Counted from the stretch's first letter, positions 17,622 through 50,727 are shown. The stretch is 64,000 nt of DNA from Azolla caroliniana (GCA_043228905.1 JBHGNT010000010.1:4526001-4590000), one strand, 5' to 3'. The notes: generated by a model from the sequence alone, not told the origin. Translations and numbers: made by a program.

Positions 17622-17637
17622 CTTCTGTGTTATCGTC

Positions 17638-27592: not shown

Positions 27593-30500
27593 CTCGAGAA
27601 AATTTAATGTTGCGGAGATAAACTATGAGGTGCATGACAAGGAGTTACTAGACGTGGTTGACTCTTTCGAGCAATGGTGACATTTCTTAGAAAGATCGCC
27701 TCATCAGATCATCATTTATAGCGATCACAAAAATCTTACATATTTTTGAACAGCTCAAGTGTTAGATAGGCGACAAGCTCGGTGGGCCCAATTTCTAACT
27801 AATTTCGATTTCAAGATCATTTTTCGCCCTGGAAAACAATAAGGGAAAGCAAATGCTTTGTCTCGTCGTTCATATTTGGCACTTCGACCTAGAGATCCGG
27901 CCTTAGACTATCAAAAGTAGATTCTCCTCGGACCATCAAAGCTACAGACAACAACAGTTTATGCCACGCCACTTGATTCAAGCCTTCTTGATACTATTTG
28001 GCAACAATTTCACTCTGACGATTTAACTGAGGATGTCTTAGCCCACATTGGTTCAAGCCATGCATCTTGCTCCACATTGCAAGGGTCATCTAAACACTAT
28101 CAGGATTGCACGTGCCAAGATGACCTACTCTTCTACAAGAATCTCCTTTATGTCCTTGACGGATCACCTCGAGTTCAAGTGTTAGAACATTGTCATGATG
28201 CCCTATGGCTGGACATTTTGGTATTGCCAAGACCGTTGAGTTAGTCAAGTGTTCGTTTTCGTGGCCTCACTTACAAAAATTTGTCGAAGATTACGTTCAC
28301 ACATGTGACATTGTTGTCGCGCCAAAATACCCAGGCATCATCCTTATGGCTTGCTACAACCATTACCGCCTCCTAACAAGCCATGGCAATCTATTTCTAT
28401 GGATTTCATTACGGATTTGCCACCTTCCAGAGGCTTTGATACTATTTTAACAATAGTGGATCGATTTACCAAGATGGCGCATTTTTTGCCATATGTAAAG
28501 AGCACCAATAGTCAAGAAACCGCAAATTTCATTATGTGTGAAGTGTTTGCCATTATGGTCTTCCAAACGATATAATTAGCAATCGTGGTTCTCAATTTAT
28601 CTCTCACTTTTGGAAGCACATATGGGCAGGCCTCAAAATCTCTGCAAACTCTCTTCGGGTTATCATCCACAAATTGACAGACAAACAGAGTGCACAAATA
28701 CGCTCGAACAGTATCTTCGATGCTTCATCAGTTATTAACAAGATGATTAAAGTTTTCATACAACAACACGGTGTCGAGGTTTTCCTCGCGGATGAGTGGA
28801 ATGAGGCGGGACCTCGGGGGTCTTGTACCAAAGAGCAAGAGAGAAAGGAGAAGATGCCCACTACGTGCGAGAGTAGATCCACAGGGACACGACCCTTCGA
28901 CGCAAAGACGCAAGTGGGACAGCGACACAGAAAGACACGAATGTATGTATGTATTAACGAAGACAAACAACAAGAACACGAAGACAACAAAACACGAAGT
29001 CGGTTACAACCGAATAGGCCGGCGAACAGATGCCGATACCTGCTCGTAAACGCACAGAGAGGAAGGAGTAGGTTGGAGGTGCTGCCGGAAGCACTCGGGC
29101 ATTCCTCAGAGCAGCGCGAGCCTCCCGAAACCTGCACAGAAGGAAGCTATGGCGTTCGCGAACCAGTGAGAGAGAGAGAGAGAAGCCTTCGCCCGCAAAC
29201 CGACAACACTTCGTCCTCGACTCTCCGCGATCCTTCGCCCCTCCTCGTCGCCCTCCTTTTATAGGTAAGGAAGGAGCCGTTTCCCTACCTACCGAATCTA
29301 CCTGCCTAGGATCTTCTATGTACAACAAGAGGCGCATGTGCACGAAGAGCCGGTTCCTATGCTCCGGTGCACCGATTCCGCTTGTGGACGGTTTTCTTCA
29401 CGACATCCGCCCCCACCTAACCGCGGATCCACCGGCATGCGCCAAATTGTGTTGGGACGGAGAAAACCGGTTGCCCACGAGGAGATCGTACGTTCCATCG
29501 GCATGATCGGCATGTGCCCAAACATGAGCTTTGCCGGCATGAATTCGGTTACCGAACTGTGCGTAGTTCGGTCAGCCCACAACACGTAAGGCAGCAGTCG
29601 CGGCCAGTTTCCGACTTGACCTCCGCATGCCCGAACTAACGCCTTGACGATCGGTCCGTGTCCGCGCTCCACCTTTCCATTCGCCTCCGGATTGTACGCA
29701 GTGGTAAGCGAGAGCTTGACTCCTACCCGGTCGAACAGCTCCTCGGCCTCTTCGGCGTCCAACTCCCCGCGATCAGCCACGATCTTCCCGACGCACCCGT
29801 ACCGGCATATCACGTCCTCAATCAGGAACCGACATACGGCCGCAGTCGTTTTGTTCTGAAGGGCTCAGCCTTCCACCTAGTTCCTCAGATCTTCCCGAGC
29901 CAGGACCAGATACCGCATCTGTCCTACTCCCATCGGCATCGTCACCAGATCTACCATCCATTTGAAGTGGATGGTCGGAGGGTACGTAGGGTGAAGCTCG
30001 TCCCGATGTCGGACTACGGAGTGCATCTGGCAGCTCTCGCAAGTTGTCACGAACCGATGCACGTCCCGGTACAGTCCCGGCCACCAGTACTTCCCCTTTA
30101 TCTTCTCGAACGTGGCCCACGTTCCACGGTGTCCAGCCCAAGGGCTGTCGTAGTAGGCCGTCAACAGCTCCTCCTGTTCTCCCTTCATCGCCACCACCCG
30201 GAGCGGGACGCCGTTCCTCTTCTTCGGGTGCTTCCATAAGTATCCGTCCCGGAGAAAGCATCGGTAAGCTTTCTTCCGGATCCGGTTGGCCTCGTCCTTC
30301 GTCCATGACGCATCCGGCGTCATTGTCCTCAGAAACCCACCGATCTGCAGCCACTCGCCGTCTTACTTGCTCTCGTCGAAGCCGTTAAGTGCCGGAGTGC
30401 TTGCCCCATCGGTCGTCACGTACGCCGCCTCGAAGAAGTCCACGCCGACTTCTTCGTCCTCCGAAACCATGCCGCCCTCGTCATCAAACCTCGCCCTCGA

Positions 30501-33500
30501 AAGCATGTCGGCCATGGCGTTGTCTTTTCCGGAAATGTGTCGTATTTCCAGGTCCAGGGACTTGATGTACGCTATCCACCTGAGCATAGCCAGGTCCGGT
30601 GTCGCGCATCCGGAAACCATGCCGAGAATCGGCAGGCAATCCGTCTTGATAACCACTTCTGTCCCGATCAGGTAGTCTTTGTCGGCCTTTACTGCCGAAA
30701 CGATACCCCAGAGTTCGCGTTTAACCTGGGCGTACCCTCGCTGTCGTTCACTGAGGACCTTAGCGCCGAATCGGATCGGGAACCGGGTGCCGTCCCCGTC
30801 TTCTTGGTTGACGACCCATCCGATCCCGGTCGGACTCGTATCCACCATTATGTATACCGGGGTACCCTTCTCGTAGACAGCCTTCCGGAGCGCCGAGGCT
30901 GCCGCAAGAGCTTCCTTCAGCTTCCGGACCGACTCCGTGTGCTCGTCTCGCCACTCGAATTTTCGCCCTTTCTTCAGCAACCCGTATAGCGGCTCCGCAA
31001 CGTGGGCGTAATGAGGGATCCATATGTGGTAGAACGCACATGCCCCCAGGAACCTCCGAACTTACGTAACCGAGCTACAATCGGTCTTCATCGCGGAGAT
31101 GGCTTCTACCTTTGCCGGAGACGGCTTCCGGCCATAAGGTCCACATAGGTGTCCGACCACCAGGATTTCTGATTGCCCGAAGGCCGATTTCTCCCCGGAG
31201 AAGGTGAGCCTCGCATCCTCTAGCCTTTGTAGCACCTTCTCGCAGTCGTCGATGTGTGTCGCCACGAATCGCCGGCATCCGTCCGGCCCGACTGTCTCGT
31301 CCTTCTCCTCCATCGGGCACCCCTTGATCGGGATGTCGTCTACAAACGGCATGGTGATGTCTGGGATGCAATCCCTTAGTACCTTGTTCATTGCATTCAC
31401 CATGTGGGCCACCGTGTTGGTCCCTCCTTGTGGCAGGGTACACATTCGCACTAGGCTGAGGGGAGTTCGCATCGTCGTAATATCTCTGCTCTCCACGGCT
31501 AGCTGGAACTGGTCGTACCCCGAGTACAGATCACCGACCGAGTAAATTGACCTTCCGGCGAAGGCCTCCGCGAACTCGTCTATGGTCGGTCCGATTCCTG
31601 TGTTCCGAATGGTCACTCTGTTGACCGGCTGCAGGTCTTGAATGAAGCGCATCGTTCCGTTTTTCTTTGGTACGGTAAACCATCGGTTCGAGTATGGGGC
31701 ACTCGACGGTTCGAGAATGCCCATATCTACTTTCTGCCTCAATAGCTCCATCAACTTCGGGATGTGAGCTCTTGGTACCGGAATCGGCTTGAGATTCCAC
31801 GGTTCATGCGGTACCGTGAATATCACCATCGGCTCCACGATCGTCGGGTCTACGCACCTGATCTCTTCCGGTGAGAATGCGAAGGCTTTCCCGTGCCTTC
31901 CGAGCATTCTCTGAAACCGGTCTTCCTCCGCCGGCAGTAGGAACCCGCCCCCACCGATCTTGAGCTCCCGGAGCGTCCTATCGGTGAAGGTGTGTCCTAT
32001 GCAGGCCGGATCTCGTAAACTGGGGTCCGACGCCACCCCTCTGATTCGGGACTCGCTGCCCTCCGGTAAGGGTGCCGCGACCGGCCTTACCTTCCGGTCC
32101 ACAGTCTTGTACTTCGTGCTAACTCGGGCCATCCGATCCGACTCGAGCCCTTGACTGAAGTCCGCGATGACTTCGTACATCTCTTCGGAACATACCGGTA
32201 TCGTCCGGTCTTCGTTAAGGTCTTCTCCGACTACCTTCCTCAGCATTCCCAAGGTGTCGTCGAAGGAGACCGCCTCCACGGCTCCGCTGATTTCCTCGTC
32301 CGGGCCGAGAACTCCGCACGCTCGAAGTCCCTCCTCCGCCCTTGCCCTTTCTCGGCCAACGATGCCGACTATCATACATCCTCCGTCGTCCGAGAAGCAA
32401 AATTTCCTGCCTATTGTACAAGGTTTCTTCGGTTTCGGTTCTATTGTACAACATGGGGTCTTTCCCGAGTGTCCAGACTGTCTCGGCCCCACGCCTTGGC
32501 AGCCCTCTCTAAAAATCCTCTCGGTTCTCGCCACCGAGGGATTTGCGGTTCCGCTCGTGGTTCGGCCGCACCGTCAGAAATTGGACCGAATGGCACCCGT
32601 CTTGGCTTTTGACCCTCGCGTAGGCCGACCCGTTGTCCAACACTTTGGTCTCCATCCGCGCCGCCGTGATGTATGGTTCACCTAATATGACCGGGTGCGA
32701 GGACGTCTCCTGTACGAAGAAGTGTTGGTCAATCTCGACGTCGCCGATCTTGACTCGCACGTTCGGGCAGGCCCCATGCAGTTCCTCGGTGGCACGCGTC
32801 GCCGCCCGTATCTTCCACCCGTGCTTGGTGTTGATCGGCCACTTCCCCTTCTTATAGAAGTCCATGGACATCAGCTTTATTTTCGAATCGTGGTCCACCA
32901 GTGCCACCACCGGTTCCTGAACCTCTCCGATCTTTACCGGGGTCTCCGTGGTCGCTCGGGCCCAGTGTGGCCTCCAATAGTGGCTCTCCGCCCACTCATC
33001 TGCCAGCGCCGAGTCGTCGATGTGTGTCGTCCGCACCTCTACCGGTCTTTCCGGATCTGTCTCCGTCGACAGCCTCTTCCGTTTCACCAAGTCTACAATG
33101 GAGTCGTGGAACTCCTTCTTGGCGATCCCTAACACCTCTCGCAATGATAGCTCCACTTTGCTGTCGAGGATCCGTTTTTCTAGGACCTTTCGTAGGTCCG
33201 TAGTCCTTTCTATCTCCGTCCCCAGTCGGTATCCGCCCTGCCTGGGGTTATCTTGCGAGCTGGACCCGTCGGCATCGTTCCGTCGTTGCCCGAATCGGGT
33301 CTCGTATCGTTGTGAGGGCCCGGCCGCTCCGGCTTTCCCCACTCGCTTGTCTTCTACCAGAGCCTCGTAGTTCCGGCAGGCGGCTTCTACGAAGCCCGTC
33401 TTCTCCTCGACCGGATCGCTCCACCCGGTTATTTCCCGGACCCGTCTCTCAGCGCGGTGTCGCGTTGTTACGCGCGTGCGTGGAGAAGGGCGGAACCACG

Positions 33501-34123
33501 GGGGTCTCGGACTAAGGAGAAGGGGAGAAGGAATAGGACTTCGGAATGGAGCTTAGCACAAGAAGAGGAAGAATGAACAAGAGGAAGATAGAGGCCAAAC
33601 GCTCAACAAGATATATTAGAAACGAAAACCGATTACAAAATGGCGGCCGCGTAGGTCGCACCGAACGACTATGATAAACCCGAAACCCTAATCCGACGAA
33701 GAAGAAAAGAAACCCTAAACGAAACCCTAACCCTAAAACGAAATGGTATACCTCACTCACACTCAAAAATAAGGCAACCCCCACAATGGTGCTCTTCCTC
33801 TCCCTTTATAGCACAAGGAGAGAAGACCGTTTACAAAAAGGGTGCTACCAAATATCCCCTTTCAATCAATGGGGATATTTCCCTTGATTTTAGGGGAGGT
33901 GGGAAGGATGGGTCTTAACTCCCACCTCTACACGAACTACTATGTACCTATCTCTCTCTCTCTCTCACGTGGATGTGCGCGCAAAAGCACATCACCTTTA
34001 CACTTTACAAATCCTAAGGTGCATTTCTAGCACCATACTTATCACTATCGATAAATAGAAATACAACATGGTGATGTGCAACGTTGCACATCGCGGGTTT
34101 GCTTGCTTCGCTCGGGTTTCCGC

Positions 34124-37100
34124 CTATGGACGAAAATCTTCACGACATCCGCCCCCACCTAACCGCACATCCACCGGTATGTGCCAAAAGGGGACAAAAC
34201 GCGAGATTTTCGGCCAAGGCGGCCAACCGAGCCCTTGACAACCTCGTGGGCTTGCCCGGCTTTGTCTTCCACTTCGAGCAAGTCCACCCCGTCCACACGA
34301 ACCACCGTCGCCTTCCGGCCCACCATCTCCACCGAATGGTCTCGAACCGTCGGCTCCATCCGATCCGCCACACTTGACAACGTTCGCCGAGTCGTTGCCT
34401 CCACCCGATCCGCCACGTCCATCGTGATTCTTTGAACCACCGTCTGCATCCGGACCGCCGTTTCCGATGCCCGCGCCTTCTTCCCCGATCGGTCCTCCCG
34501 AACGCCGTTGCCGACCCGGTTGCTCTTCTTTTGTCCGCCTCGTATAGCCTCCGGATGCTCTCCCGATCTCTCCGGTTGCACGCCGGATTCCGCCTTTCCC
34601 GTGCTTGCCGTGCTCTCTCGCCGTAGAGCATACCATCGTTCCCGTGCTCGTTGCTTGGCCCTCATGCGGCCGCATTGCACGTTTCGCATTCCGCTCCTCT
34701 TCGCGTACCCTTTCGGAAAGGTACCTTTCTTCCCCGACCTCCGTTTCGCTCGGAGGAACACCCTCTTGGCCCTCTTGGTCCGCTCGACCGCACACATCCT
34801 TCGTGATGTCGTGTTCGTTCTTTTGGGCGCATACATCTTCGTTCTCCGCGACCTCCCGTATGCCTCTCTCGGTGCCTTCATCCGTTGTGGCCTTCGTCCC
34901 CTCGCCGCCACCGTCCGCCACTCTTGGTCTCACGTCGGCACTCGCGCCGACCGCCGGAGTCTCTATAGCCGGTGTGGAGGATCCCTCTCGGGCCTTATCT
35001 TCGTGGCCGCCGGTCTTAGCCTCTCCGTAGGCCACCTCTTCCCACCAATCTTCCCTAGCATCGTGCCAGGTCTTGTCGTCGTCGCCTTCCTCCTCGTATT
35101 CGCCTCTCGAAGGCGTGATCCGACCGTCATCTTCGGTCGCTCGATGTGGCTCCTTCGTAGGCATGCTTGTGTCTTGGCCCTCCATCGGCCATATTGCATG
35201 CATCTCGTCTCGCTCTTCCGCCGTAGATCCGACCTCCGTGTCGGTCTTCTCCTCCTTTGTCGCCGTAGCCCGTTCCGACACGGGCTCGCCGTCTTGGACC
35301 CACCCGTCCACCATCTCGTACCGGATATCCGTTCCGGTAACCTCGTACGCTCCGGCCTCCGACTCCTCGCCGCTACCCGCCGTCTCTCCGGTCTTATGTT
35401 GATCCGCAACCGCCGTAGTCTCTAGAGTGGATATGGAGGGTCTCGTTTGTTTCCGTTTTCCCCCCGAACCATGGTCGTCGTGCCCGGTTAGCCTCCATCT
35501 CGCGCTTACCGGCTCCCATCGCAACCGTAACCGTAACCGTAACCGGCCAATCGGTCTTGCCGGCTTCCTTCGGTTTGGGCCCGGTTCGCCGGCCCTTACT
35601 CTCTTCTTCTTCCGTGCCGTATTCCGGTCGGGTCGGTTCCCGACTCTCTCCTCGTTTCCGCTCCGGTCCTCTCCGTCGGACCCACCGTATACGCCCATTC
35701 CGGGCCCCGCATACTCGTCTTCGTATGCGCTCTCTCCGGGCCTCACCTCCTCACGGTCACCGCCCATCTCTCCGGTCTCACGTTGGCATTCGAGCACAAC
35801 CGCCGAAGTCTCCGGCCCCGGTGTCAAGGGGTCTTGCCTCCGTCTGCTCCAATCTTCCTTCTCGTTTCCGTTGCCTGCCTTGCCGCCGTCACCTCCCGTC
35901 GCACTAAGCCTCATGCCGGCACTCGGGCCGGCCATTGGAGCCTCTAGGATTGGTGTGGGTAAGGTCCCGGCACCACCGCTTGTTGTCTCCGTAGCCGCTT
36001 TCGTTCGGACGTCGTCGTCCGCAGCTCCCCCATCTCCGATTCCGTAAGCCTCTAGTATGCTTGCCACCACCTCTTCTTCGCCGTTCTCCGCGTCATTTTG
36101 TTTGCCCGCCTTGCCGCCGCCACCGCCCGTCGTTCTAGGTCTCGTGCCGGCACTCGGGCCGACCGCCGAAGCCTCTAGGGCCGGTGTGTGGAAGGTCGCG
36201 GCACCACCGCTCGCCTCCTCTCCGCTCGATGTTTTGGGCCGCCGTGCCCCGAATCTTCCGCCCACTTTCGAAGTGGCGCTCTCCGCTTTGTAGTCACCGG
36301 CCTCATCCTTGGCCGTCCATTCGCCGCAAGACGAGAGGGTTGCTCGCTCCGCACCCTCTCCCATGTCGTCGTCGTTTCGGTTGCCCGCCTTGCCGCCGCC
36401 ACCGTCCGTCACTCTAGGCCTCTCGCCGGCTCTCGGGCCGGGTGCCGGAGTCTCTAGGACCGGTGTGTGGAAGGTCACGACACCACCACTCCTCTCGTCC
36501 GTAGCCACCTCCATTCGGACATCGTCGTCCGTGGCTACCCCGTCTTCGGTTTCGCAAGCATCGAGTATGCTTGCCGCCGCCTCTTCTTCGCCGGTCTCGT
36601 CCTCATCTCGGTTGTCCACCTTGCCGCCGCCACCGTCCGTAGCTCTAGGTCTCGTGCCGGCACTCGGGCCGACCGCCGAAGCCTCTAGGGCCGGTGTGTG
36701 GAAGGTCGCGACACCATCGCTCGTTTCATCTTCCTCCTCCATTTCGCAAGCCTCGAGTATGCTCGCGAAATCCTCGTAGAACGTTTCGGGCAATCGCGTC
36801 CCGAAACTTCCGCCCACTCTCGAAGTGGCGTCCATCGCTCCGTAGATATCGGCCTCGTCCATGGCCGTTCTTTTTCCCCGAGATGAGACGGTCGCTTCCT
36901 CCGCACCTTCTCTCGTGTCGACGCCGTGGTCGCCCGCCTTGCCACCGCCACCGCCTTTCACCATAGGTCTTACGCGGGCACTCGGGCCGGCCGCCGTGAT
37001 CTCTAGCAATGACGCGTGTAAGGTCGCGGGACCGCCGCTCGTCGATGTAATGTCCGTAGCCACCTCCGCTCGGACGTCGCTGTCCGTGGCTACCCCGCCT

Positions 37101-38320
37101 CCGTATATGCAAGCATCGGTTATGCTTGCCGCCGCCTCTTCCGCGGTCTCCTTACCGTTGTCTCGGTTGGCCGCCTTGCCGCCGCCACCGTTCTTCTCCC
37201 TCGGTCTCTCGCGGGCGCTCGGGCCGGCCGCCGTGGTCTCTCGAACCGGTGCGTGGAAGGTTGCGGTACCGCCGCTTGTCTCCTCCGTACTCGATGATTC
37301 GGGCCACCGTGTCCCGAATCCGCCATGTCCGCTCGAATCGGCGATCGCCGCCTCACCATCCCCGACCTCGTCCTCGGTCGTTCTTTTCCCCCATGTCGAG
37401 AGGGCGGTTCGCTCCGCACCCTCTCCCGTGGTACCGATGTACCATTCTCTTTCGGCCTCCGCATAGGCCCCGTCCTCCATGTGTGAGGAAGCTCCTTCCT
37501 CCGCGTCCTCCGATCCGCTCGGGCCCGACCCCGCAATAAGCCATTCTTCGGCTTCGATTTTCGTCATTACGAGCCCGCACGCCTCCCGTATTAGCGCTTG
37601 TAGGTCGAGCCCCTCCAAACCGGTTCGCGATGAGCTCTCGTCCGGCGGCATGGCGTAGTTGGTCGTCGCTCTCTCTTCTCCCCCGCTCGCGGGCCGTGTT
37701 GTGGCCGACCGCCTCGCCTCATGTTGCCGACAGACCCATTCCACTTCGGGCCACTCCTCGGTGAGACCATGCGCCCCATAATCGTCTTGAAGCTCGAACG
37801 TGATGTCCATCCTCTCCTCATGATGGACCGTCTCCAAAAATAGGAGGACTTTGTCCGCCCCCACCGATCTTCGTTCCCACTCCGAGAGTTGAGAGAAACG
37901 ACGCTCGAACTCTCGGAATGCCTCTATTGCGCTCCGATGGCGCCTCGCCGACGCCATCCACCGATCGAACTCTCGCCGACCTCTTACCTCCGATTCCGCG
38001 CACCCGTATGCCTCCATTAGAGCCCCTTCAAAGGACTCCCACGATTCGTGAGCTTCTTGGAGCTCCTTGACCTCCTCGTACTTTGATGCGGCCGCCGCTC
38101 GACGAAAGAACTCTAGCCTCGTCGCTTCGTCCACGCCCATCCCCGTCATTTCCGCATCGTAGGCTCTCAAAAATTTTGGGACCTCCTTCCCATCGAACCG
38201 GCCGACTAGACGGACCACCCTTTCGACCGCTTGTTGAGCCGCCTCTCGCCTCGCCCTCTTCCGTCCGGCGTCCATCAAGATCTTTGTCATCATCTCCTCG
38301 AAGCCGAAGCCTTCTTCCAT
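34124..38320 (-). CDS. 1398-aa protein: divergent Gag capsid-like N-terminus (~200 aa) plus long acidic Gly/Ala/Glu/Thr-rich repetitive tail
   Basis: Uninterrupted ATG ORF starting 20 nt after the PBS. The N-terminus aligns by eye to element A Gag (GRFDGK/GRFSGK, WESFEG/WEEFEG, REFERRF/REFEERF, KVLLFL/RVLLFV, GLTEEW/GLTTNW). The stop lies inside the 3' LTR. Confidence 0.85.
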   Translation of the reverse strand: MEEGFGFEEMMTKILMDAGRKRARREAAQQAVERVVRLVGRFDGKEVPKFLRAYDAEMTGMGVDEATRLEFFRRAAAASKYEEVKELQEAHESWESFEGALMEAYGCAESEVRGRREFDRWMASARRHRSAIEAFREFERRFSQLSEWERRSVGADKVLLFLETVHHEERMDITFELQDDYGAHGLTEEWPEVEWVCRQHEARRSATTRPASGGEERATTNYAMPPDESSSRTGLEGLDLQALIREACGLVMTKIEAEEWLIAGSGPSGSEDAEEGASSHMEDGAYAEAEREWYIGTTGEGAERTALSTWGKRTTEDEVGDGEAAIADSSGHGGFGTRWPESSSTEETSGGTATFHAPVRETTAAGPSARERPREKNGGGGKAANRDNGKETAEEAAASITDACIYGGGVATDSDVRAEVATDITSTSGGPATLHASLLEITAAGPSARVRPMVKGGGGGKAGDHGVDTREGAEEATVSSRGKRTAMDEADIYGAMDATSRVGGSFGTRLPETFYEDFASILEACEMEEEDETSDGVATFHTPALEASAVGPSAGTRPRATDGGGGKVDNRDEDETGEEEAAASILDACETEDGVATDDDVRMEVATDERSGGVVTFHTPVLETPAPGPRAGERPRVTDGGGGKAGNRNDDDMGEGAERATLSSCGEWTAKDEAGDYKAESATSKVGGRFGARRPKTSSGEEASGGAATFHTPALEASAVGPSAGTRPRTTGGGGGKAGKQNDAENGEEEVVASILEAYGIGDGGAADDDVRTKAATETTSGGAGTLPTPILEAPMAGPSAGMRLSATGGDGGKAGNGNEKEDWSRRRQDPLTPGPETSAVVLECQRETGEMGGDREEVRPGESAYEDEYAGPGMGVYGGSDGEDRSGNEERVGNRPDRNTARKKKRVRAGEPGPNRRKPARPIGRLRLRLRLRWEPVSARWRLTGHDDHGSGGKRKQTRPSISTLETTAVADQHKTGETAGSGEESEAGAYEVTGTDIRYEMVDGWVQDGEPVSERATATKEEKTDTEVGSTAEERDEMHAIWPMEGQDTSMPTKEPHRATEDDGRITPSRGEYEEEGDDDKTWHDAREDWWEEVAYGEAKTGGHEDKAREGSSTPAIETPAVGASADVRPRVADGGGEGTKATTDEGTERGIREVAENEDVCAQKNEHDITKDVCGRADQEGQEGVPPSETEVGEERYLSERVREEERNAKRAMRPHEGQATSTGTMVCSTAREHGKHGKGGIRRATGEIGRASGGYTRRTKEEQPGRQRRSGGPIGEEGAGIGNGGPDADGGSKNHDGRGGSGGGNDSANVVKCGGSDGADGSRPFGGDGGPEGDGGSCGRGGLARSGRQSRASPRGCQGLGWPPWPKISRFVPFWHIPVDVRLGGGGCREDFRP

Positions 38321-38340
38321 CTCTTTCTCCCTTGCCGCCC

Positions 38341-38358
38341 TTCACGTCGGGTTCACCA
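38341..38358 (-). promoter_or_regulatory. Primer binding site complementary to the plant tRNA-Trp 3' end (also 40183-40200; partial at 46256-46269)
   Basis: Plus strand TTCACGTCGGGTTCACCA matches the 3' 18 nt of plant cytosolic tRNA-Trp(CCA) as recalled; it sits 3-4 nt from each 5' LTR. Confidence 0.85.
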
Positions 38359-40841
38359 AGGATGTCGCGTTGTTACGCGCGTGCGTGGAGAAGGGCGGAA
38401 CCACGGGGGTCTCGGACTAAGGAGAAGGGGAGAAGGAATAGGACTTCGGAATGGAGCTTAGCACAAGAAGAGGAAGAATGAACAAGAGGAAGATAGAGGC
38501 CAAACGCTCAACAAGATATATTAGAAACGAAAACCGATTACAAAATGGCGGCCGCGTAGGTCGCACCGAACGACTATGATAAACCCGAAACCCTAATCCG
38601 ACGAAGAAGAAAAGAAACCCTAAACGAAACCCTAACCCTAAAACGAAATGGTATACCTCACTCACACTCAAAAATAAGGCAACCCCCACAATGGTGCTCT
38701 TCCTCTCCCTTTATAGCACAAGGAGAGAAGACCGTTTACAAAAAGGGTGCTACCAAATATCCCCTTTCAATCAATGGGGATATTTCCCTTGATTTTAGGG
38801 GAGGTGGGAAGGATGGGTCTTAACTCCCACCTCTACACGAACTACTATGTACCTATCTCTCTCTCTCTCTCACGTGGATGTGCGCGCAAAAGCACATCAC
38901 CTTTACACTTTACAAATCCTAAGGTGCATTTCTAGCACCATACTTATCACTATCGATAAATAGAAATACAACATGGTGATGTGCAACGTTGCACATCGCG
39001 GGTTTGCTTGCTTCGCTCGGGTTTCCGCCTATGGACGAAAATCTTCACGACAGCGGTCCGTTTCATCTTTCCTTAGCCGTGTGCCGCCAAGACCTTCCAG
39101 CATTGCCGCCCAGAATCCGTCTTTGCCCTCCTTTCGGGCCTCGCTGCACCCGACCCGAATGCCGGCCAACGCCGAGTAGTGGATGGCTTCCACGTGTCGG
39201 GCCGCTGCCTCTTCCATCAGTCTCTTCATACCTCCTCGTCCGTCGTTTCGGTTCAGGGCCCTCCTGGTGTCGCCGGCGTGCACCCGGCCTTCCCACAGGT
39301 ACACCACATGTTCCCTGCTGCCGGCCGTCGGTCACGAACCGGTTCGTTGCCTTCCCTTCGAGTCTGGGCGATCTGGAGATCCTTTATCACCCGCGTCAAT
39401 TCCTCCAGCGCTGCTCCTCCGGACGAGCCACTGACCATGCCGGTCGAAGCCGGACCGGTCCCGAGCCATTCCCGGGTCTCTTCCCTTCGCACTTGCGGTG
39501 CCGGTTCAAGCCTCCTTGCTGTGACAGAGCCCGCACCTCCCGCCCCGTTGTCAGCCCATTCTCGCCGTTTATCGAAACAGCCACAGACTCTCTTAACTGC
39601 GGCCCAGTTGGTTGTCAGCCCGTCCTCGGTTTCCAACAAGGAGCCGACTTGGTCCCGGTCCCGCTCGTCCACCGACTTGACGAACAGTAGGACCCGGCTC
39701 GTATCCAGAACGGTTCGGTCAAGCGCCGAAAGGCGCGCAAAGCGTTCTTCGAACTCCCGGAGGAGTGTCGTCGCGTTTCTTCCCTTGCCGGGGAACTCCA
39801 CCCATTCCATGAAGTCCCTTTTCGAAAGCCGGAGCGTGTCGTCCAGCCCGTATTTTTCTAGGAGTCGGCCTTCGAACTCCTCCCAGGTACGGCTCTCCGC
39901 CCGCACCTCGAGCACCTCCACATGGATGCTCGGCATCGCCACTCGAGGAAACCTGGCAAGACGCCTCTCTTCCGGAATGTCCCGCATCAGCATTTCTGCC
40001 CGTAGGACGCCAAATACTTCGTGGCATCCTTTCCGCTGAACCGGCCGATCGTACCGACGACCGCCTCAATGGCTCTGTCGAGGGCGCCGGTGCCCTCGCG
40101 TGCACTCAATATCCAATCTACGGCCGAAGCCATGGCTTCTGCAAGATCCGACCCTTTCATCTTCTGCTCTTCTGCCGCCTCCTTCACGTCGGGTTCACCA
40201 AGATGTCGAGGTTTTCCTCGCGGATGCGTGGAATGAGGCGGGACCTCGGGGGTCCTGTACCAAAGAGCAAGAGAGAAAGGAGAAGATGCCCACTACGTGC
40301 GAGCGTAGATCCACAGGGACACGGCCCTTCGACGCAAAGACGCAAGTGGGAAAGCGACACAGAAAGACACGAATGTATGTATGTATTAACGAAGACAAAC
40401 AACAAGAACACGAAGACAACAAAACACGAAGTCGGTTACAACCGAACAGGCCGACTAACAGATGCCGATACCTGCTCGTAAACGCACAGAGAGGAAGGAG
40501 TAGGTTGGAGGTGCTGCCGGAAGCACTCGGGCATTCCTCAGAGCAGCGCGAGCCTCCCGAAACCTGCACAGAAGGAAGCTATGGCGTTCGCGAACCAGAG
40601 AGAGAGAGAGAGAGAAGCCTTCGCCCGCAAACCGACAACACTTCGTCCTCGACTCTCCGCGATCCTTCGCCCCTCCTCGTCGCCCTCCTTTTATAAGTAA
40701 GGAAGGAGCCGTTTCCCTACCTACCGAATCTACCTACCTAGGATCTTCTATGTACAACAAGAGGCGCATGTGCACGAAGAGCCGGTTCCTACGCTCCGGT
40801 GCACCGATTCCGCTTGTGGACGGTTTTCTTCACGACAATGG

Positions 40842-43800
40842 TGTCGTGGTATTCCTCGCGGATGCGTGGAATGAGGCAGGACCTCGGGGGTCTTGTACCG
40901 AAGGGCAAGAGAGAAAGGAGAAGGGAGGGGACCCACTACGTGCGAGCGTAGATTCACAGGGACACGGCCCTTCGACATAAAGACGTGAGTGCGACCCCGA
41001 CACAGAGAGACACGAATGTACGTAAATATATATATTAACAAGACAAACGACAAGAAGCACGAAGTCGGTTACAACCGAACAGGCCGGTGAACAGATGCCG
41101 ATGCCTGTTCGTAAACGCACAGAAAGAAAAGAGTAGGTTGGAGGTGCTGCCGGAAGCACTCGGGCATTCCTCAGAGCAGCGCGAGCCTCCCGAAACCTGC
41201 ACAAAAAGAAGCCACGGAGCTTGGGGGGAGAGAGAGAGAAGCCTTCGCCCACAAACCGACAACACTTCGTCCTCTTCTATTCGCGATTCCCTTTTCCCCT
41301 CCTCGTCTCCCTCCTCTTATAGGCAAGGAAGGAGCTGTTTCCCATTAACTTCCTACCTACCGAATCTACCTACCTAGGATCTTCTATGTACCTAATTCTC
41401 TCTTATGTACAATATAAGGCGTACGTGCATGAAGAGCCGGTTCCTACACTCCGGTGTACCGATTCTGCTTGTGGACGGTTTTCTTCACGACATCCGCCCC
41501 CACCTAACCGCGCATCCTCCGGCATGCGCCAAATTGAGTCGGGACGGAGAAAACCGGTCCAGCCTTCATTCCTCGCCCGTCGGTTCTTCCTCGGTTTCGG
41601 ATCGTTCGTCGTCGTGGTCCAGGTTAACCGGATCCGGCTCGTCGTCGTGACGCTTTTTGAACGCTTTGATCCGCTTCCCAGCTACCGGTATCGCCATTCT
41701 CGTGCCGTCGAGTTCCGCCAGATGGTATGTCCCGTTGTCGTTGGCGCTTTGTACCACGTAAGGTCCGAACCACATTCTCGCGAACTTTCGTGTCGCTCGG
41801 TGCTGGTTGTCGAGACTGTTGTCGTAGACTAGCACCCAGTCGCCTTCCTCGATCTTCTTCGGTCGGAGACGGTGCGTTCGGTCGAACCGGGCTTTGTTCC
41901 TCGTCCTTGCCACCCGAAGCTCTCTCGCGGCCTGCTCCACGTCCTCCGGTCTTCGCTCGAGCTGTCGTATGCGCGCCGCCAACAGTTCCTCCCAGCTCAT
42001 CTCGTCACTCCAGTCCACGGTTGCCCATGACGAGATCGTACGTTCCATCGGCATGATCGGCTTCTGCCCAAACATGAGCTCTGCCCGGCATGAATCCGGT
42101 TACCGAACTGTGCGTAGTTCGGTCTGCCCACAACGCGTAAGGCAGCAGCCGCGGCCAGTTCTCGACTTGACCCCCGCATGCCCGAACTAACGCCTTGACG
42201 ATCAGTCCGTGTCCGCGCTCCACCTTCCCATTCGCCTCTGGATTGTACGCAGTGGTAAGCGAGAGCTTGACTCCTAGCCGGTCGAACAGCTCCTCGGCCT
42301 CTTCGGCGTCCAACTCCCCGCGATCAGCCACGATCTTCCCGACGCACCCGTACCGGCATATCACGTCCTCGATCAGGAACCGACATACGGCCGCGGTCGT
42401 TTTGTTCTGAAGGGCTCAGCCTTCCACCTAGTTCCTCAGATCTTCCCGAGCCAGGACCAGATACCGCATCTGTCCTACTCCCATCGGCATCGTCACCAGA
42501 TCTACCATCCATTTGAAGTGCATGGTCGGAGGGTACGTAGGGTGAAGCTCGTCCCGATGTCGGACTACGGAGTGCATCTGGCAGCTCTCGCAAGTTGTCA
42601 CGAACCGATGCACGTCCCGGTACAGTCCCGGCCACCAGTACTTCCCCTTTATCTTCTCGAATGTGGCCCACGTTCCACCTTGTCCAGCCCAAGGGCTGTC
42701 GTGGTAGGCCGTCAGCAGCTCCTCCTGTTCTTCCTTCATCGCCACTACCCGGAGCGGGGCGCCGTTCCTCTTCTTCAGGTGCTTCCATAAGTATCCGTCC
42801 CGGAGAAAGAATCGGTAAGCTTTCTTCCGGATCCGGTTTGCCTCGTCCCTCGTCCATGACGCATCCGGCGTCATTGTCTTCAAGAAACCACCGATCTGTA
42901 GCCACTCGCTGTCGTACTTGCTCTCGTCGAAGCCGTTAAGTGCCGGAGTGCCCGTCCCATCGGTCGTCACGTACGCCGCCTCGAAGAAGTCCACGCCGAC
43001 TTCTTCGTCCTCCGAAACCATGCCGCCCTCGTCATCAAACCTCGCCCTCGAAAGCATGTCGGCCATGGCGTTGTCCTTTCCGGAAATGTGTCGTATTTCC
43101 GGGTCTAGGGACTTGATGTACGCTATCCACTTGAGCATCGCCAGGTCCGGTGTCGCGCACCCGGAAACCATGCCGAGAATCGGCAGGCAATCCGTCTCGA
43201 TAATCACTTCCGTCCCGATCAGGTAGTCTTTGTCGGCCTTTACTGCCGAAACGATACCCCAGAGTTCGCGTTTAACCTGGGCGTACCCTCGTTGTCGCTC
43301 ACTGAGGACCTTCGCGTCGAATCGGATCGGGAACCGAACGCCGTCCTCGTGTTCTTGGTTGACGACCCATCCGATCCCGGTCGGACTCGTATCCACCGTT
43401 ATGTATACCGGGGTACCCTTCTCGTAGACAGCCTTCCGGAGCGCCGGTGCTGCCGAAAGAGCTCCCTGCAGCTTCCGGACCGACTCCGTGTGCTCGTCTC
43501 GCCACTCGAATTTTAGCCCCTTCTTCAGCAACCCGTATAGCGGCTCCGCAACGTGGGCGTAATGCGGGATCCATATGTGGTAGAATGCGCATGCCCCCAG
43601 GAACCTTCGAACTTCCGTAACCGAGCTACAGTCAGTCTTCATCGCGGAGATGGCTTTTACTTTTGCCGGAGACGGCTTCCGGCCATACGGTCCACATAGG
43701 TGTCCGACCACTAGGATTTCTGATTGCCCGAAGGCCGATTTCTCCCCGGAGAAGGTGAGCCTCGCATCCTCTAGCCTTTGTAGCACCTTCTCGCAGTCGT

Positions 43801-46800
43801 CGATGTGTGTTGATACGAATCGCCGTCATCCGTCCTGCCCGAGTGTCTCATCCTTCTCTTGCACCAGGCACCCCTTGATCGGGATGTCGTCTAGAAACGG
43901 CATGGTGATGTCCGGGATGCAATCCCTCAGTACCTTGTTCATTGCATTCACCATTTGGGCCACCGAGTTGGTCCCTCCTTATGACAGGGTACACATTCAC
44001 ACTAGGCCGAGGGGAGTTCGCATCGTCGTAATGTCTCTGCTCTCCACGGCTAGCTGGAACTGGTCGTACCCCGAGTACAGATCACCGACCGAGTAAATCG
44101 ACCTTCCGGCGAAGGCCTCCGTGAACTCGTCTATGGTCGGTCCGATTCCTGCGTTCCGGAAGGTCAATGTTCCGTTTTTCTTCGGTACGGTAAACCATGG
44201 GTTCGAGTATGGGGCACTTGACGGTTCGAGAATGGCCATATCGACTTTCTGCCTCAATAGTTCCATCAACTTCGGGATGTGAGCTCTCGGTACTGGAATC
44301 GGCTTGAGATTCCACGATACATGCAGTACCGTGAATATCACCATCGGCTCCACGATTGTCGGCTCGAGCTCTTGACTGAAGTTCGCGATGACTTCGTACA
44401 CCTCTTGGGAACATACCGGTATCGTCCGGTCTTCGATAAGGTCTTCCCCGGCTACCTTCCTCAGCATTCCCAAGGTGTCATCGAAGGAGACCGCCTCTAC
44501 GGCTCCGCTGATTTCCTCGTCCGGGCCGAGAACTCCGCACGCTCGAAGTCGCTCCTCCGCCCTTGCCCTTTCTCGGCCAGCGATGCCGACTATCATACAC
44601 CCTCCGTCGTTGGAGAAGCAAAATTTTCTACCTATCGTACAAGGATTCTTCGGTTTCGGTTCTATCGTACAGCTGTGGGGTCTTTCCCGAGTGTCCGGAC
44701 TGTCTCGGCCCCACGCCTCGGCAGCCCTTTCTAAAAATCCTCCCGGTTCTCGCCATCGAGGTATTCGTAGTTTCGCTCGTAGTTCGTCCGCACCGTCAGA
44801 AATTGGACCGAATGGCGCCCGTCCTGGCTTTTGACCCTCGCGTAGGCCGAACCATTGTCCAGCACTTTGGTCTCCATTCTCGCCGCCGTGATGTATGGTT
44901 CCCCTAAAATGACCAGATGCGAGGACGTCTCCTGTACGAAGAAGTGCTGGTCAATCTCGACGTCGCCGATCTTGACTCGCACATTCGGGCAGGCCCCGTG
45001 CAGTTCCTCTGTGGCGCGTGTCGCCGCCCGTATCTTCCACCCGTGCTTGGTGTTGATCGGCCATTTTCCCTTCTTATAGAAGTCCATGGACATCAGGTTT
45101 ATTTCCGAACCGTGGTCCACCAGTGCTACCACCGGTTCTTGAACATCTCCGATCTTTACCGGGGTCTCTGTGGTCGCTCGGGCCCAGTGTGGCCTCGAAT
45201 AGTGGCTCTCCGCCCACCCATCTTCCACCGCTAAGTTGTCGATGTGCGTCGTCCGCACCTCCACCAGTCTTTCCGGTTCCGTCTCCGTCGACAGCCTCTT
45301 CCGTTTCACCAAGTCTACAATGGAGTCGTGGAACTCCTTGGCGATCCCTAGCACCTCCCGCAATGATAGCTCCACTTTGCTGTCGAGGATCCGTTCTTCT
45401 AGGACCTTTCATAGGTCCGTGGTCCTTTCTATTTCCGTCCCCAGTCGGTATTCACCCTTCCTGGGGTTATCTTGCGAGTTGGACCCACCGACATCGTTCC
45501 GTCGTTGCCCGAATCGGGTCTCGTACTGTTGTGAGGGCCCGGGCGCTCCGGCTTTCCCCACTCATTTGTCTTCTACCAGAGCCTCGTAGTTCCGGCAGGC
45601 GGCTCCTACGAAGCCCGTCTTCTCCTCGACCGGGTCACTCTACCCGGTTACTTCCCGGACCCGTCTCTCAACGCGGTCCGCTTCATCTTTCCTCAACCGT
45701 GCGCCGGCGAGGCCTTCTAGCATTGCCGACCAGAATCCGTCTTTGCTCTCCTCTCGGGCCTCGCTGCCTCCGACCCGAATGCCGGCCGACGCCGAGTAGT
45801 GGATGGCCTCCACGTGTCGGGCCGCTGCCTCTTCTATCAGTTTCTTCATCCCTCCTCGCCCGTCGTTTCGGTTTAGGGCCCTTCTGGTGTCGCCGGCGTG
45901 CACCCGGCCTTCCCACAGGTACACCACCCGGTTCCTCAACGCCTCTGCGAAGTCGCCGCAGTCCTTCCGAATGTGGCCGACCTCGTCGCACCACATGCAC
46001 CTGTTCCCTGCTGCCGGCCGTTGGTCACGAGCCGGTTCGCCGCCTTCCCTTCGATTCTGGGCGATCTGGAGATCCTTTATCGCCCACGTCAACTCCTCCA
46101 GCGCTGCTCCTCCGGACGAGCCATTGACCATGCCGGTCGAAGCCGGACCGGTTTCGAGCCATTCCCGGGTTTCTTCCCTTCGCCCTTGCGGTGCCGGTTC
46201 AAGCCTCCTTGCTGTGACAGAGCCCGCACCGGCCACCCCGTTGTCAGCCCATTCTCGTCGGGTTCACCAAGATGTCGTGGTATTCCTCGCGGATGCGTGG
46301 AATGAGGCGGGACCTCGGGGGTCTTGTACCGAAGGGCAAGAGAGAAAGGAGAAGGGAGGGGACCCACTACGTGCGAGCGTAGATTCACAGGGACACGGCC
46401 CTTCGACACAAAGACGCGAGTGCGACCCCGACACAGAGAGACACGAATGTATGTAAATATATATATTAACAAGACAAACGACAAGAAGCACGAAGTCGGT
46501 TACAACCGAACAGGCCGGCGAACAGATGCCGATGCCTGTTCGTAAACGCACAGAAAGAAAAGAGTAGGTTGGAGGTGCTGCCGGAAGCACTCGGGCATTC
46601 CTCAGAGCAGCGCGAGCCTCCTGAAACCTGCACAGAAAGAAGCCACGGAGCTTCGGGGGAGAGAGAGAGAAGCCTTCGCCCACAAACCGACAGCACTTCG
46701 TCCTCTTCTATTCGCGATTCCCTTTTCCCCTCCTCGTCTCCCTCCTCTTATAGGCAAGGAAGGAGTCGTTTCCCATTAACTTCCTACCTACCGAATCTAC

Positions 46801-46923
46801 CTACCTAGGATCTTCTATGTACCTAATTCTCTCTTATGTACAATATAAGGCGTACGTGCATGAAGAGCCGGTTCCTACGCTCCGGTGTACCGATTCTGCT
46901 TGTGGACGGTTTTCTTCACGACA
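40842..46923 (-). mobile_element. Gypsy element C (sister of A), defective
   Basis: 651-bp LTRs at 40842-41492 and 46273-46923 (about a dozen differences). Gag zinc knuckle CMWCDEVGHIRKDC, PR ALVDHGSEINLM, RT FLDD, RH, INT with WFGPY. Gag N-terminus deleted. Confidence 0.95.
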
Positions 46924-47978
46924 ACGGTACACTCTTCTACCAAAGTTACACCTTTCTTTGCCTACACTGACAACCACCTTCGATGGTGTATCCTGGATCT
47001 TCCCGGGATGTCACAAAACCCTAGTATGACGCATCACCTCCACCAACTACAACAAATCCAGTTCGAGTTATCGTCACATCTTTAGAGGGCTCAAGCACAC
47101 CATAAGACCAATGCAAATCAACATCGCCTTAAGTCTCCTTTTAAGGTTGGTGACCGAGTATGGTTGCTTCGTCGTCACATCAATAGTACCCGATCATGTG
47201 CTAAGCTCAATTTTCAACGTTTAGGTCCTTTTGCCATCACAACGCAGATTAATGATGCAACATTTCGTCTTAACCTTCCTGCACACATGCGACTTCACCC
47301 AATCTTTCATAGCTCTCTTTTGGAGCCATGCCGCACCTTTTTAATTCCTAATCGTGTTGTGCCCCCTCCGCCTTCTGTCCAACTTGTTGATGGCCCCGAA
47401 TACGATGTAGCTACTATTTTTTATTCTAAGATTGTGCGCAATAAGCTCTATTATCTAGTTGATTGGCTTGGTTATCCTCTGAATGATCGCACTCGGGAAC
47501 CTGTCGATAACATTTGTAATGCTCAAGCTCTTGTCGACGACTTCCATTGCCACTATCCAGACAAACCTGGCCCAACAATGTTAACGCTAACTTCCACTCG
47601 TCGTTCTCAAAGGAGGGATAGTGTCACGAACACATGACCATTATGGCATTGTCATGATGTTTTCATACCACGATGAGAAAATAACCTCAACCAAATTATA
47701 TGAACTGATTCAAAACTTTGTAAATGGTTGTTTAGCTAAGAGATAACTAATAACTTGATAAGAACATTCGCCATAGGATGATAATAGCTAGTTGAATCTG
47801 CGATAAAACATAATATCGAGTAGAATAGTTTAAAGCGAAATACCTATTATTAACACACTTGTTATTATCACTATTAGGTATTTTAACTATAAATCTATTA
47901 AAGCTATTACCCACTTTTAAAGCTAAATACCTATTATCAACACACTTGTTATTATCACTATCAACTATTTTAGCTATT

Positions 47979-48570: not shown

Positions 48571-48757
48571 GGAAATTGGTAAATTCATAGTTTTTTTTGT
48601 ATTTTTTCATAGTTTTTTTGTTTAGTTGAGAAATATGATTATTTGTGTGCTCACTCACAGTTTATATTTGCACTACATATTTTGTTATAAACAGAGGCGC
48701 GAAATTACTCGCTCGCTCGCTCACAGTAACGGCTCCCTCCCTCCCTGCATATTATGC

Positions 48758-48807
<50 letters not shown>

Positions 48808-50727
48808 TCCTTTTTTTGGGGGATGGAATCTAGGTATTCTTCCAAAGAAGCTATGATCGAAGCTCTCAAAGCAGAATATGTTCAAAAAGGTGTTGTTTTA
48901 ACAACGAAAAGATTTGCTTATAACAGAGTCGAGTTGAAGTGTAATTTGGGTGGAGAACCAAAGGTCAAGGAGACGAACGATGGCGATCAGAAAAGGAAAA
49001 AGGGATCCAGGCTAACAGGTTGCACATTTGAAATCATTTGTGGGTGCAAAAAAGGCGTTTGGTATGTTCGAAAGATTTTGGGTGATCACAACCATGAAAT
49101 ACCTGATAGTTTGATTGGCCATTCGAAATATAGGAAATTAGATGGTGAAAGTAGGATAAAAGTTCAATCGATGTACGAATCTAATGTTGAACTGAAGGAG
49201 ATAATTAGTTCTTTGAAAAAAGAGTCCCAAAGTAATGCTTCAATCCAAGAAGTATACAACACCGTAAAGGGTGTTAAAAGAGATTTTGTAGAGGGCAAAT
49301 CTCCATTGGAAACATTGTCAGATATTATCGCGTCCCCAGAATACACTAGTAAGCTGTGCTTGGATGACGGCGGTGGAGTTAATGGATTATTTTTGGCGTT
49401 CAATGAAGTTGTAAAGCTTGCTAAAAGATTTGGTGGGGTTTTCTTGTTGGACTGCACATACAAGACTAATAAATTCGGCATGCCCTTACTAAATTTCGTG
49501 GGAATTGCGTGTACGAATCAGACTTTCAATGCCACTGTTGCATTTCTTCCTGATGAGCAGGAAGAATCATACAAATGGGCGTTAAGGGAATTTAGCTCAA
49601 TTGTCAGTCCAAGAGTAATAGCAACAGACCGAGAACTGGCACTGATGAATGCTATTGTGGTGACATTCCCTATGTGTAAAAACGTCCTTTGCATATGGCA
49701 CATTAACAAAAACGTTGGTTCCAAATGTAAAGGATTTTTCAAGAAAGAAGACGAATGGAAAATATTTCTTCAAAGATGGAAGGAATTATTCTATTCATCA
49801 ATTGTGAACTAATTCAATCAAAATATGAATGATTTTTCGATATACAAGATCACAAATCCAGATGCATATGAGTATATACTTCAAACGTGGTTACCTTGGA
49901 AAGAAATGTTTGTAACTTGTTACGTAAAGGATATACGTCATTTTAATTCTGTCACTACATCTCGTGTTGAAGGTAGTCATCGGGTCTTAAAAAGTTACAT
50001 CAAAAATGGGAAATGAAATTTACCAGAAGTGGTAAAGAATCTCAATTTGCTTTAGAAAAATCAGACTGCCGAGATTTCAAAAGAAATTGAACATCAAAAA
50101 TTGATTGTCTGTGATAGACACAAAATTGGGTTGTTAAAACCATTGCAAAAGAAGTTGTCTTTGTTTGCATTGGACGAAATACTTAAACAGTACAAGAAAT
50201 CATTGAATGAAGAGGAAATGAAAGAGGTTTGCACCCAAAGCGTCATTGGAACATTGGGATTACCTTGCAAACACACAATAAGGGAGTTGGTCGAAGAAGG
50301 TCAAGTACTAATTGATGCATATATTGACTCTCAATGGCTTTTAGAATTGAATGCATCTTCTAGAGCCATTACCAATGTTAGTTTGAGTCAAAATATTTCA
50401 CCAAGAAAAAATTTTATTGAGAGATTACATAATGAGTTGTACAACAATCCTCAGACTCATTCGTCATCATTTATTAATCGTATTCAAAGTGTTTTGGATG
50501 ATCCAACCAAAGAAATTCAGGATATTCAACCTCTTCAGCGCAAAAAAGGAAGACCAGTGGGTGCCAAAAATAAGGGAGCTTCAATTAGAAGGGACAAATC
50601 TCATTTTGAATACGTAGAGGGGCGAAAGTGCTCAAAGTGTGGAGAGCCTGGACACAATGCTAGAACATGCTCCAAATCTTAATAAACTGTGAAAATACAA
50701 AAAAAAACTGTGAATTTACCAATTTCC
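48571..50727 (+). mobile_element. Mutator-like (MULE) DNA transposon, ~45-bp TIRs, 8-bp TSD TAAAGCTA
   Basis: GGAAATTGGTAAATTCATAGTTTTTTTTGTATTTT at 48571 is inverted as ...AAAATACAAAAAAAAACTGTGAATTTACCAATTTCC ending at 50727. TAAAGCTA at 48563-48570 and 50728-50735. Confidence 0.92.
48823..50682 (+). pseudogene. MULE/FAR1-type transposase with three in-frame stops
   Basis: FAR1/WRKY-like C..HNH, LDCTYKTN, ATDRE, LCIWH, TTSRVEGSH, SWIM-like GLPCKH and knuckle CSKCGEPGHNARTC. One frame throughout, with stops ending at 49812, 50016 and 50055. Confidence 0.9.

What the first reader, a model, noticed from the sequence alone, without database searches (positions are those of the whole stretch)
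40830..40850. Two different elements inserted head-to-tail into the identical 4-bp site
Seen: ACGG(28768-28771)-[A]-ATGG(40838-40841)-[C]-ACGG(46924-46927), where the middle spacer is the TSD with a CpG>TpG change. A and C have different LTRs and do not share one, so this is not an LTR-recombination tandem. The spacer also does not match unprocessed cDNA ends (TCT/GA). Both LTR pairs have similar divergence. Inference: a second integration reused the first element's TSD, indicating strong site specificity or targeting next to an existing LTR end.
Basis: seen in the sequence. Interest (0 to 1): 0.75.

Follow-up and report, generated by a model that had tools for sequence, protein, structure and literature searches.

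The report
Two retrotransposons sharing one CpG site
Two related plant retrotransposons sit end to end with a 4-base site on both outer sides and a one-base variant of it between them, most likely because this family lands almost only on CG-centred sites and a second copy likely reused the first copy's duplicated site, an uncommon but expected by-product of a known target preference.

Summary
A and C are two subfamilies of one high-copy, chromodomain-less Ty3/gypsy family (tRNA-Trp primer, 4-bp TSD) that matches the description of the bryophyte Phygy lineage, for which an NCGN target preference is already published. Genome-wide, 1973 of 2277 outer ends of the A/C type are followed by NCG (background 3.7%). 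End-to-end pairs recur: 14 of 15 inspected junction sites join two LTRs, about 50 are estimated genome-wide, in mixed orientations and between different subfamilies. All 13 outer flanks resolved by LTR pairing equal the spacer (9) or its CpG-decayed form (4). So sequential double insertion into a regenerated target, followed by one C-to-T change, is well supported. Double insertion is known for DNA transposons and non-LTR elements; I found no paper showing it for plant LTR elements. Reads spanning this junction were not found (uninformative contigs). Real, explained, modestly interesting.

The parts
28768..28771 (+). left TSD copy, ACGG
28772..40837 (-). element A, Phygy-like Ty3/gypsy LTR retrotransposon (6.5 kb without B); 3' LTR 28772-29405, PPT 29406-29417, PBS 40188-40200, 5' LTR 40204-40837; pol in pieces (RT, RNase H by Pfam), about 460 bp shorter than C next to the PPT
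33458..39052 (-). element B nested in A: same termini, PBS and PPT, identical 690-bp LTRs, TSD GCGG (33454-33457 and 39053-39056), one 1405-aa ORF without Pfam match
40838..40841 (+). middle TSD copy, ATGG (inferred ACGG after one C-to-T change at a CpG)
   Evidence: the same kind of change at other TSDs
40842..46923 (-). element C, sister subfamily of A (6082 bp); 3' LTR 40842-41492, PPT 41493-41504, PBS 46257-46269, 5' LTR 46273-46923; pol in pieces (RNase H, integrase zinc finger by Pfam), lacks about 620 bp that A has behind the PBS
46924..46927 (+). right TSD copy, ACGG
28542..28771 (+). host element, left part: decayed integrase coding sequence of an older chromodomain-bearing gypsy element, ending ...FSYNNT at the TSD
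   Evidence: flanks translated separately
46924..47634 (+). host element, right part: continues TVHSSTKVTPFFAY...; SH3_Tf2-1 and Chromo domains downstream
25507..26159 (-). solo LTR of the same family with TSD ACGT on both sides (internal comparison); written here on the strand opposite to A and C's coding strand

Best explanation
Elements A and C flank a triplicated 4-bp site, most likely because two separate integrations used the same CG-centred target one after the other, and the middle copy likely mutated from ACGG to ATGG afterwards. Step 1 (shown): the family's target is a 4-bp site centred on CG, mostly VCGB. Step 2 (established for integrases): the staggered cut duplicates the site, so an insertion leaves two intact targets, one at each LTR end. 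Step 3 (inferred): a later cDNA of a sister subfamily integrated at one of these copies in the same register, giving TSD-A-TSD-C-TSD; which came first cannot be told (12/634 vs 12/651 LTR mismatches). Step 4 (inferred): the middle CpG was methylated with the element and deaminated. Step 5 (inferred): the preference is probably intrinsic to the integrase (central pyrimidine-purine step plus base contacts), with regional clustering in repeat-rich DNA adding a factor of 2-3; no tether to LTR ends is needed.
For: Motif: 1973 of 2277 non-internal ends are followed by NCG against 3.7% CpG background; 5 of 7 fetched exceptions read NTGN or NCAN; 6003 family ends carry VCGB, control 13. Recurrence: 16 matches at 15 sites, 15 of 16 spacers NCGN, 14 of 15 sites with an LTR on both sides; 77 CGACA-NCGN-TGTCG sites vs 15 control, 10 of 15 inspected with two LTRs. 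Triple TSD elsewhere: of 38 outer sides of 19 other LTR-LTR junctions, 13 were resolved by LTR pairing: 9 equal the spacer, 4 are its CpG-decayed form, 0 unrelated; 8 more were resolved as solo LTRs. Independence: those 10 junctions are 6 head-to-tail, 2 head-to-head, 2 tail-to-tail by my reading of PBS, PPT and termini; partners differ in subfamily; 2 junctions have 6-nt spacers, as expected from a neighbouring CG used 2 nt away. CpG decay in one TSD copy also occurs in 3 of 16 single elements. The host reading frame runs up to ACGG on the left and on from ACGG on the right. Rate: 10 reuse events among 2277 ends vs 6-7 expected (range 2-16) from nested insertions in the interiors of sampled elements. 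Precedent: McGurk and Barbash, 10.1101/158386 (passages); NCGN preference of Phygy, PMC6317226 (passages and additional file 5).
Against: Reuse is at the high end of expectation: about 50 junctions vs 6-40 under motif alone; a conserved VCGG site 16 nt inside the LTR end took only 1 insertion in at most 3984 copies; 2 of 69 sampled ends had a decayed partner end, more than the exact counts imply. The interior calibration rests on 5-6 events counted partly by hand. One of 16 single elements had unrelated flanks (L086). This junction rests on the assembly alone.
Confidence: 0.87

Rival explanations
1. Sequential insertion, but actively steered to existing LTR ends (integrase or a host factor binds terminal TGTCG/CGACA repeats or the CG-rich terminal tract).
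For: Reuse 10 vs 6-7 expected; 1 hit at an internal control site; the CG tract 16-24 nt inside one U5 end holds 31 hits (29 after merging two duplicated pairs) in 2295 copies vs 7-9 expected, range 2-19; 5 of 69 sampled ends lie within about 25 nt of a relative's LTR terminus.
Against: The TSD excess lies inside the uncertainty range; 60 of 70 sampled flanks matched neither LTR nor internal library, and flanks resemble motif-matched background in GC, CpG and repeat content; flank preference is G at +1 (0.47 vs 0.21) and against G at +2 (0.11 vs 0.23), whereas LTR ends give T then G (109 flanks).
Confidence: 0.12
2. Two cDNAs were joined end to end (repair or concatemer) and integrated once; the spacer is filler that resembles the TSD by chance.
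For: A and C have the same LTR divergence and are head-to-tail; the spacer is not identical to the outer TSD.
Against: Spacers elsewhere are 4 nt, NCGN and match their outer flanks in 13 of 13 pair-resolved sides; orientations are mixed; no 0- or 2-nt joints among 54 matches; the spacer matches neither cDNA end.
Confidence: 0.03
3. Assembly artefact or recombination between two alleles, each with one element at the same site.
For: No listed public contig bridged the junction; the region is highly repetitive.
Against: A chimeric join would not keep both termini intact with exactly 4 nt between them and matching outer TSDs, nor repeat this at many loci; crossing over within 4 bp is improbable and would still need two hits at one site.
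Confidence: 0.03

Closest known systems
Phygy lineage of non-chromovirus Ty3/gypsy elements (Neumann et al. 2019, PMC6317226; passages and additional file 5 seen)
   Same: 4-bp TSD with NCGN, tRNA-Trp PBS, no chromodomain, polyprotein filling nearly the whole internal region; best named protein relatives are from a liverwort at up to 65% identity.
   Different: Intact copies here are 6.6-7.3 kb against 7.7-10.0 kb in that table; the motif here is narrower (VCGB, G at +1); phylogenetic placement not tested; dimers are not mentioned in the passages seen.
Double-insertion tandem dimers (McGurk and Barbash 2018, 10.1101/158386; passages seen): P element, hobo, jockey, R1, bacterial IS dimers
   Same: TSD-length spacer matching the target motif; the target is regenerated by each insertion; junction spacers lean to the best motif (ACGT 22 of 50 listed junction sites vs 34 of 100 single ends).
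   Different: There LTR-element tandems were put down to LTR recombination; here LTR elements form TSD-separated dimers, often between subfamilies and in all orientations.
Tandem LTR-RT structures of plants (PMC11899658; passages seen)
   Same: Adjacent LTR retrotransposons of one family inside one outer TSD.
   Different: Those share an LTR and have no inner TSD; here there are four LTRs and three TSD copies.
Drosophila ZAM subgroup errantiviruses (review PMC5408687; passages seen)
   Same: Gypsy-type integrase with a palindromic, CG-containing 4-bp target (CGCG).
   Different: Different lineage and termini (AGT vs TG); that Drosophila has little CpG methylation is recalled, not from a call, and suggests CG targeting need not depend on methylation.

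Membership tests
Phygy (non-chromovirus Ty3/gypsy) | gypsy domain order PROT-RT-RH-INT | tested here: met
   Young relatives L086 and L107: weak Asp protease in ORF1, then RVT_1, RT_RNaseH, Integrase_H2C2, rve; closest solved structure Ty3 Gag-Pol
Phygy (non-chromovirus Ty3/gypsy) | 4-bp TSD with NCGN | tested here: met
   1973 of 2277 ends; TSD pairs
Phygy (non-chromovirus Ty3/gypsy) | PBS complementary to tRNA-Trp | tested here: met
   PBS sequence matches the 3' end of genes in this genome that ARAGORN calls tRNA-Trp(CCA), 6 of 6 loci
Phygy (non-chromovirus Ty3/gypsy) | no chromodomain, no extra ORF | tested here: met
   No Chromo hit at E 0.1 in two full Pol ORFs; ORFs fill the internal region
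Phygy (non-chromovirus Ty3/gypsy) | length 7.7-10.0 kb as tabulated | tested here: not met
   Copies without large deletions are 6.6-7.3 kb; the paper calls size relatively insignificant for classification
Phygy (non-chromovirus Ty3/gypsy) | RT-RH-INT phylogeny within the Phygy clade | not testable with these tools
   No labelled Phygy reference was available (additional files 1 and 3 too large); named relatives are liverwort proteins. Filed as Phygy-like only.
Double-insertion dimer | spacer of TSD length matching the target motif | tested here: met
Double-insertion dimer | outer flanks equal the spacer | tested here: met
   window; 13 of 13 pair-resolved sides equal or CpG-decayed
Double-insertion dimer | single-element or empty allele at the same locus | not testable with these tools
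   Only short contigs of other runs were available
Shared-LTR recombination tandem | three LTRs with one shared, no inner TSD | tested here: not met
   four LTRs in two pairs with a 4-nt spacer
Chromovirus (Tcn1, Galadriel and others) | chromodomain after integrase; tRNA-Met or self-priming | tested here: not met
   the host element, not A or C, has the chromodomain

The most novel reading that the evidence does not exclude
The integrase of this chromodomain-less family reads methylated CpG (or CpG runs) directly, so it is steered into silenced DNA, stacks new copies on its own TSDs and CG-rich LTR ends, and loses old targets as CpGs decay: a retroelement integrase guided by a DNA mark.
Probability: 0.15. 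Interest if true: 0.75.

Novelty: new member of a known kind. Interest (0 to 1): 0.35.

Why it matters
It gives a clean, countable case of double insertion by LTR retrotransposons in a plant, with a large natural data set (about 6000 intact ends) for one of the few plant LTR lineages with a sequence-specific integrase. It sharpens the published NCGN motif to VCGB with G at +1 and makes one question testable: whether the integrase reads CG by shape or by methylation. For annotation, such pairs break TSD-based LTR finders and could seed satellites. The single locus itself is a by-product.

Tried and rejected
Public DNA runs: 20 listed, none holding half of the junction's words; four laid, all short contigs; no listed piece bridged 40838-40841; uninformative, since these are contigs, likely of other individuals, and the list is cut. 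The 17 matches with a 3-nt spacer looked like a second class, but 0 of the 10 with loci begin with an LTR terminus: they are TSDs ending in T followed by host GTCG. L010 was dropped from the dimer count (one side not LTR-like); L092 was dropped as a duplicate of L091 (98.6% over 10 kb). Wider context preference: GC, CpG density and repeat content of 400-bp flanks do not differ from motif-weighted background, so they say nothing on methylation. The loose count CGACAVCGB (41691 vs control 18855) includes family-internal matches and served only as an upper bound. My first guess, a chromovirus, was rejected. No Rfam or tRNA gene in the region. Paper searches for a description of TSD-separated LTR dimers in plants or for the basis of the NCGN preference found none; the library lacks most subscription papers, and unseen supplements (Neumann additional files 1 and 3; bioRxiv supplements) may bear on this. 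Kitamura et al. 1992 on CpG methylation and integration was seen as a title only.

Full report
Observation. The sequence reads ACGG (28768-28771), element A (28772-40837), ATGG (40838-40841), element C (40842-46923), ACGG (46924-46927). Both elements lie on the minus strand, end in TGTCG...CGACA and have their own LTR pair: A 634 bp with 12 mismatches, C 651 bp with 12 mismatches. A and C LTRs are about 81% alike and the internal regions 92-93%, so they are sister subfamilies; each lacks a different stretch that the other has. A third relative, B (33458-39052, identical LTRs, TSD GCGG), is nested in A. The site lies in the decayed integrase of an older chromodomain-bearing gypsy element, whose frame runs up to ACGG on the left and on from ACGG on the right, which makes ACGG the original site and ATGG the changed copy.

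What the elements are. Two young relatives from the same genome show protease, RT, RNase H and integrase in gypsy order and no chromodomain. The PBS matches tRNA-Trp(CCA) genes of this genome in 6 of 6 loci. Named protein relatives are liverwort retroelement proteins at up to 65% identity; the closest hits (83%) are unnamed. Neumann et al. 2019 (PMC6317226; passages and additional file 5) list the Phygy lineage with a 4-bp NCGN TSD, tRNA-Trp PBS and no chromodomain, and call it the one plant lineage with a sequence preference. Size is smaller here (6.6-7.3 kb vs 7.7-10.0 kb) and phylogeny could not be tested, so I file the family as Phygy-like.

Target motif. The LTR end GGTTTTCTTCACGACA occurs 3984 times; 1707 are internal junctions; of the other 2277, 1973 (87%) are followed by NCG, against 3.7% CpG in 200 kb of evenly spread sample. 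Of 7 fetched exceptions, 5 read NTGN or NCAN. Across subfamilies 6003 such ends carry VCGB, control 13; the first 100 listed are ACGT 34, ACGC/GCGT 24, ACGG/CCGT 23, CCGG 9, CCGC/GCGG 5, GCGC 5 (counted by eye). In 109 flanks G is favoured at +1 (0.47 vs 0.21) and disfavoured at +2 (0.11 vs 0.23). Of 16 single elements with both ends resolved, 12 have identical TSDs, 3 differ by one CpG transition and 1 has unrelated flanks. Both other family members in the window follow the rule (GCGG, ACGT).

Other dimers. The pattern LTR end-NNNN-TGTCG gave 16 matches at 15 sites, 15 with NCGN spacers; the window's is the one decayed spacer; 14 of 15 sites have an LTR on both sides. The family-blind pattern CGACA-NCGN-TGTCG gave 77 sites vs 15 control; 10 of 15 inspected join two LTRs, 4 have one, 1 has none, which extrapolates to about 50. 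By PBS, PPT and termini those 10 are 6 head-to-tail, 2 head-to-head and 2 tail-to-tail. For 20 junctions I fetched 10 kb on each side; 19 join two LTRs. Of their 38 outer sides, 13 were resolved by LTR pairing: 9 equal the spacer, 4 are its CpG-decayed form, none is unrelated; 8 more were resolved as solo LTRs (7 equal, 1 decayed; 5 of these were picked by requiring a match, so they are not independent); 17 stayed unresolved. Six junctions were resolved on both sides. Spacer lengths 0-10 gave 0, 3, 0, 17, 16, 0, 3, 2, 5, 3, 5 matches. Among the 22 non-4-nt matches with loci, none of the ten 3-nt cases starts with an LTR terminus, and two 6-nt cases do, as expected when the neighbouring CG is used.

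Is reuse more than the motif predicts? With no motif, 0.07-0.43 dimers are expected for 6000-15000 insertions; with the motif and uniform spread over an effective 5.6 million sites, 6-40; about 50 are estimated. Family ends cluster 2.4-3.7-fold within 20 kb (first 100 hits on C1), which covers most of the gap. Calibrating on nested insertions in the interiors of sampled elements (5-6 events over about 6100 VCGB sites, partly counted by hand) predicts 6-7 reuse events (range 2-16) among the 2277 ends; 10 are seen. Against this reading: a conserved VCGG site 16 nt inside the same LTR end has 1 insertion; 2 of 69 sampled ends abut a decayed partner end; and a CG tract 16-24 nt inside one U5 end has 29 independent insertions in 2295 copies vs 7-9 expected, range 2-19. 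A mild excess at termini is therefore not excluded, but a dedicated tether is not required. Flanks of insertions do not differ from motif-weighted background in GC, CpG density or repeat content.

Mechanism. Shown: CG-centred target, triple TSD, mixed orientations and subfamilies. Established: integration duplicates the target, so it is not consumed (McGurk and Barbash, 10.1101/158386, passages). Inferred: two sequential integrations, order unknown, then deamination of the methylated middle CpG. The basis of the preference is untested. Serrao et al. (PMC4422553, abstract only) report that retroviral integrases with short TSDs favour central pyrimidine-purine steps, largely independent of chromatin, and Drosophila ZAM-group elements target CGCG (PMC5408687, passages), so intrinsic sequence or shape read-out is the likelier basis; reading of methylated CpG remains open.

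Comparison and novelty. Both ingredients are in print: NCGN preference for Phygy, and double insertion for DNA transposons and non-LTR elements. McGurk and Barbash ascribe LTR-element tandems to recombination, and the plant survey PMC11899658 (passages) deals with shared-LTR tandems. Jedlicka et al. (PMC6911290, passages) note Phygy elements nested in Tcn1 chromoviruses, as here in a chromodomain host. My searches found no description of TSD-separated LTR dimers in a plant, within a library that lacks most subscription papers. The junction at this locus rests on the assembly; public contigs neither bridge nor contradict it.

Verdict. Real and explained: a double insertion by a CpG-targeting Phygy-like family, one of about 50 in this genome. 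New member of a known kind; interest 0.35.

Noticed in passing
window 33458-39052 (-): Element B has the family's termini, PBS and PPT and identical LTRs but one 1405-aa ORF with internal repeats and no Pfam match; Atlas leads are gag-like at 0.87 or less (weak). Likely a young non-autonomous partner family.
   Followed up: partly
loci L143-L172: A CG tract 16-24 nt inside the U5 end AACAACGCGACA takes insertions at 2-nt steps, about 3-4 times above expectation.
   Followed up: partly
L085 (G000:C1:6252909-6262908) and L003: Three family members stacked within about 25 bases: a TSD-reuse junction plus a further insertion 14-19 nt inside the partner's LTR end.
   Followed up: no
L048, L050, L051, L057, L007, L016: A second, AT-rich LTR family with TGTCG ends and the same PBS; ACGT spacer in five of these six loci; forms mixed dimers with the A/C family.
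   Followed up: partly
window 12894-18294 (-): Ty1/copia element with identical 642-bp repeats and an open 1388-aa polyprotein frame (gag, integrase, RT), so a very recent insertion.
   Followed up: no
G000:C8:17796786-17823370 and G000:C16:4989496-5105657: Clusters of the tRNA-Trp 3' motif: about 17 copies at roughly 1.2-kb spacing on C8 and about 20 on C16, possibly tandem tRNA gene arrays.
   Followed up: no
L091 and L092 (G000:C1, 9.55 and 9.64 Mb): An inverted segmental duplication of at least 10 kb at 98.6% identity.
   Followed up: no
window 4991-6151 (+), 48730-49809 (+), 60453-60983: A cytochrome P450 frame, a MULE/FAR1 transposase frame, and a degenerate 45-47-bp tandem repeat.
   Followed up: no
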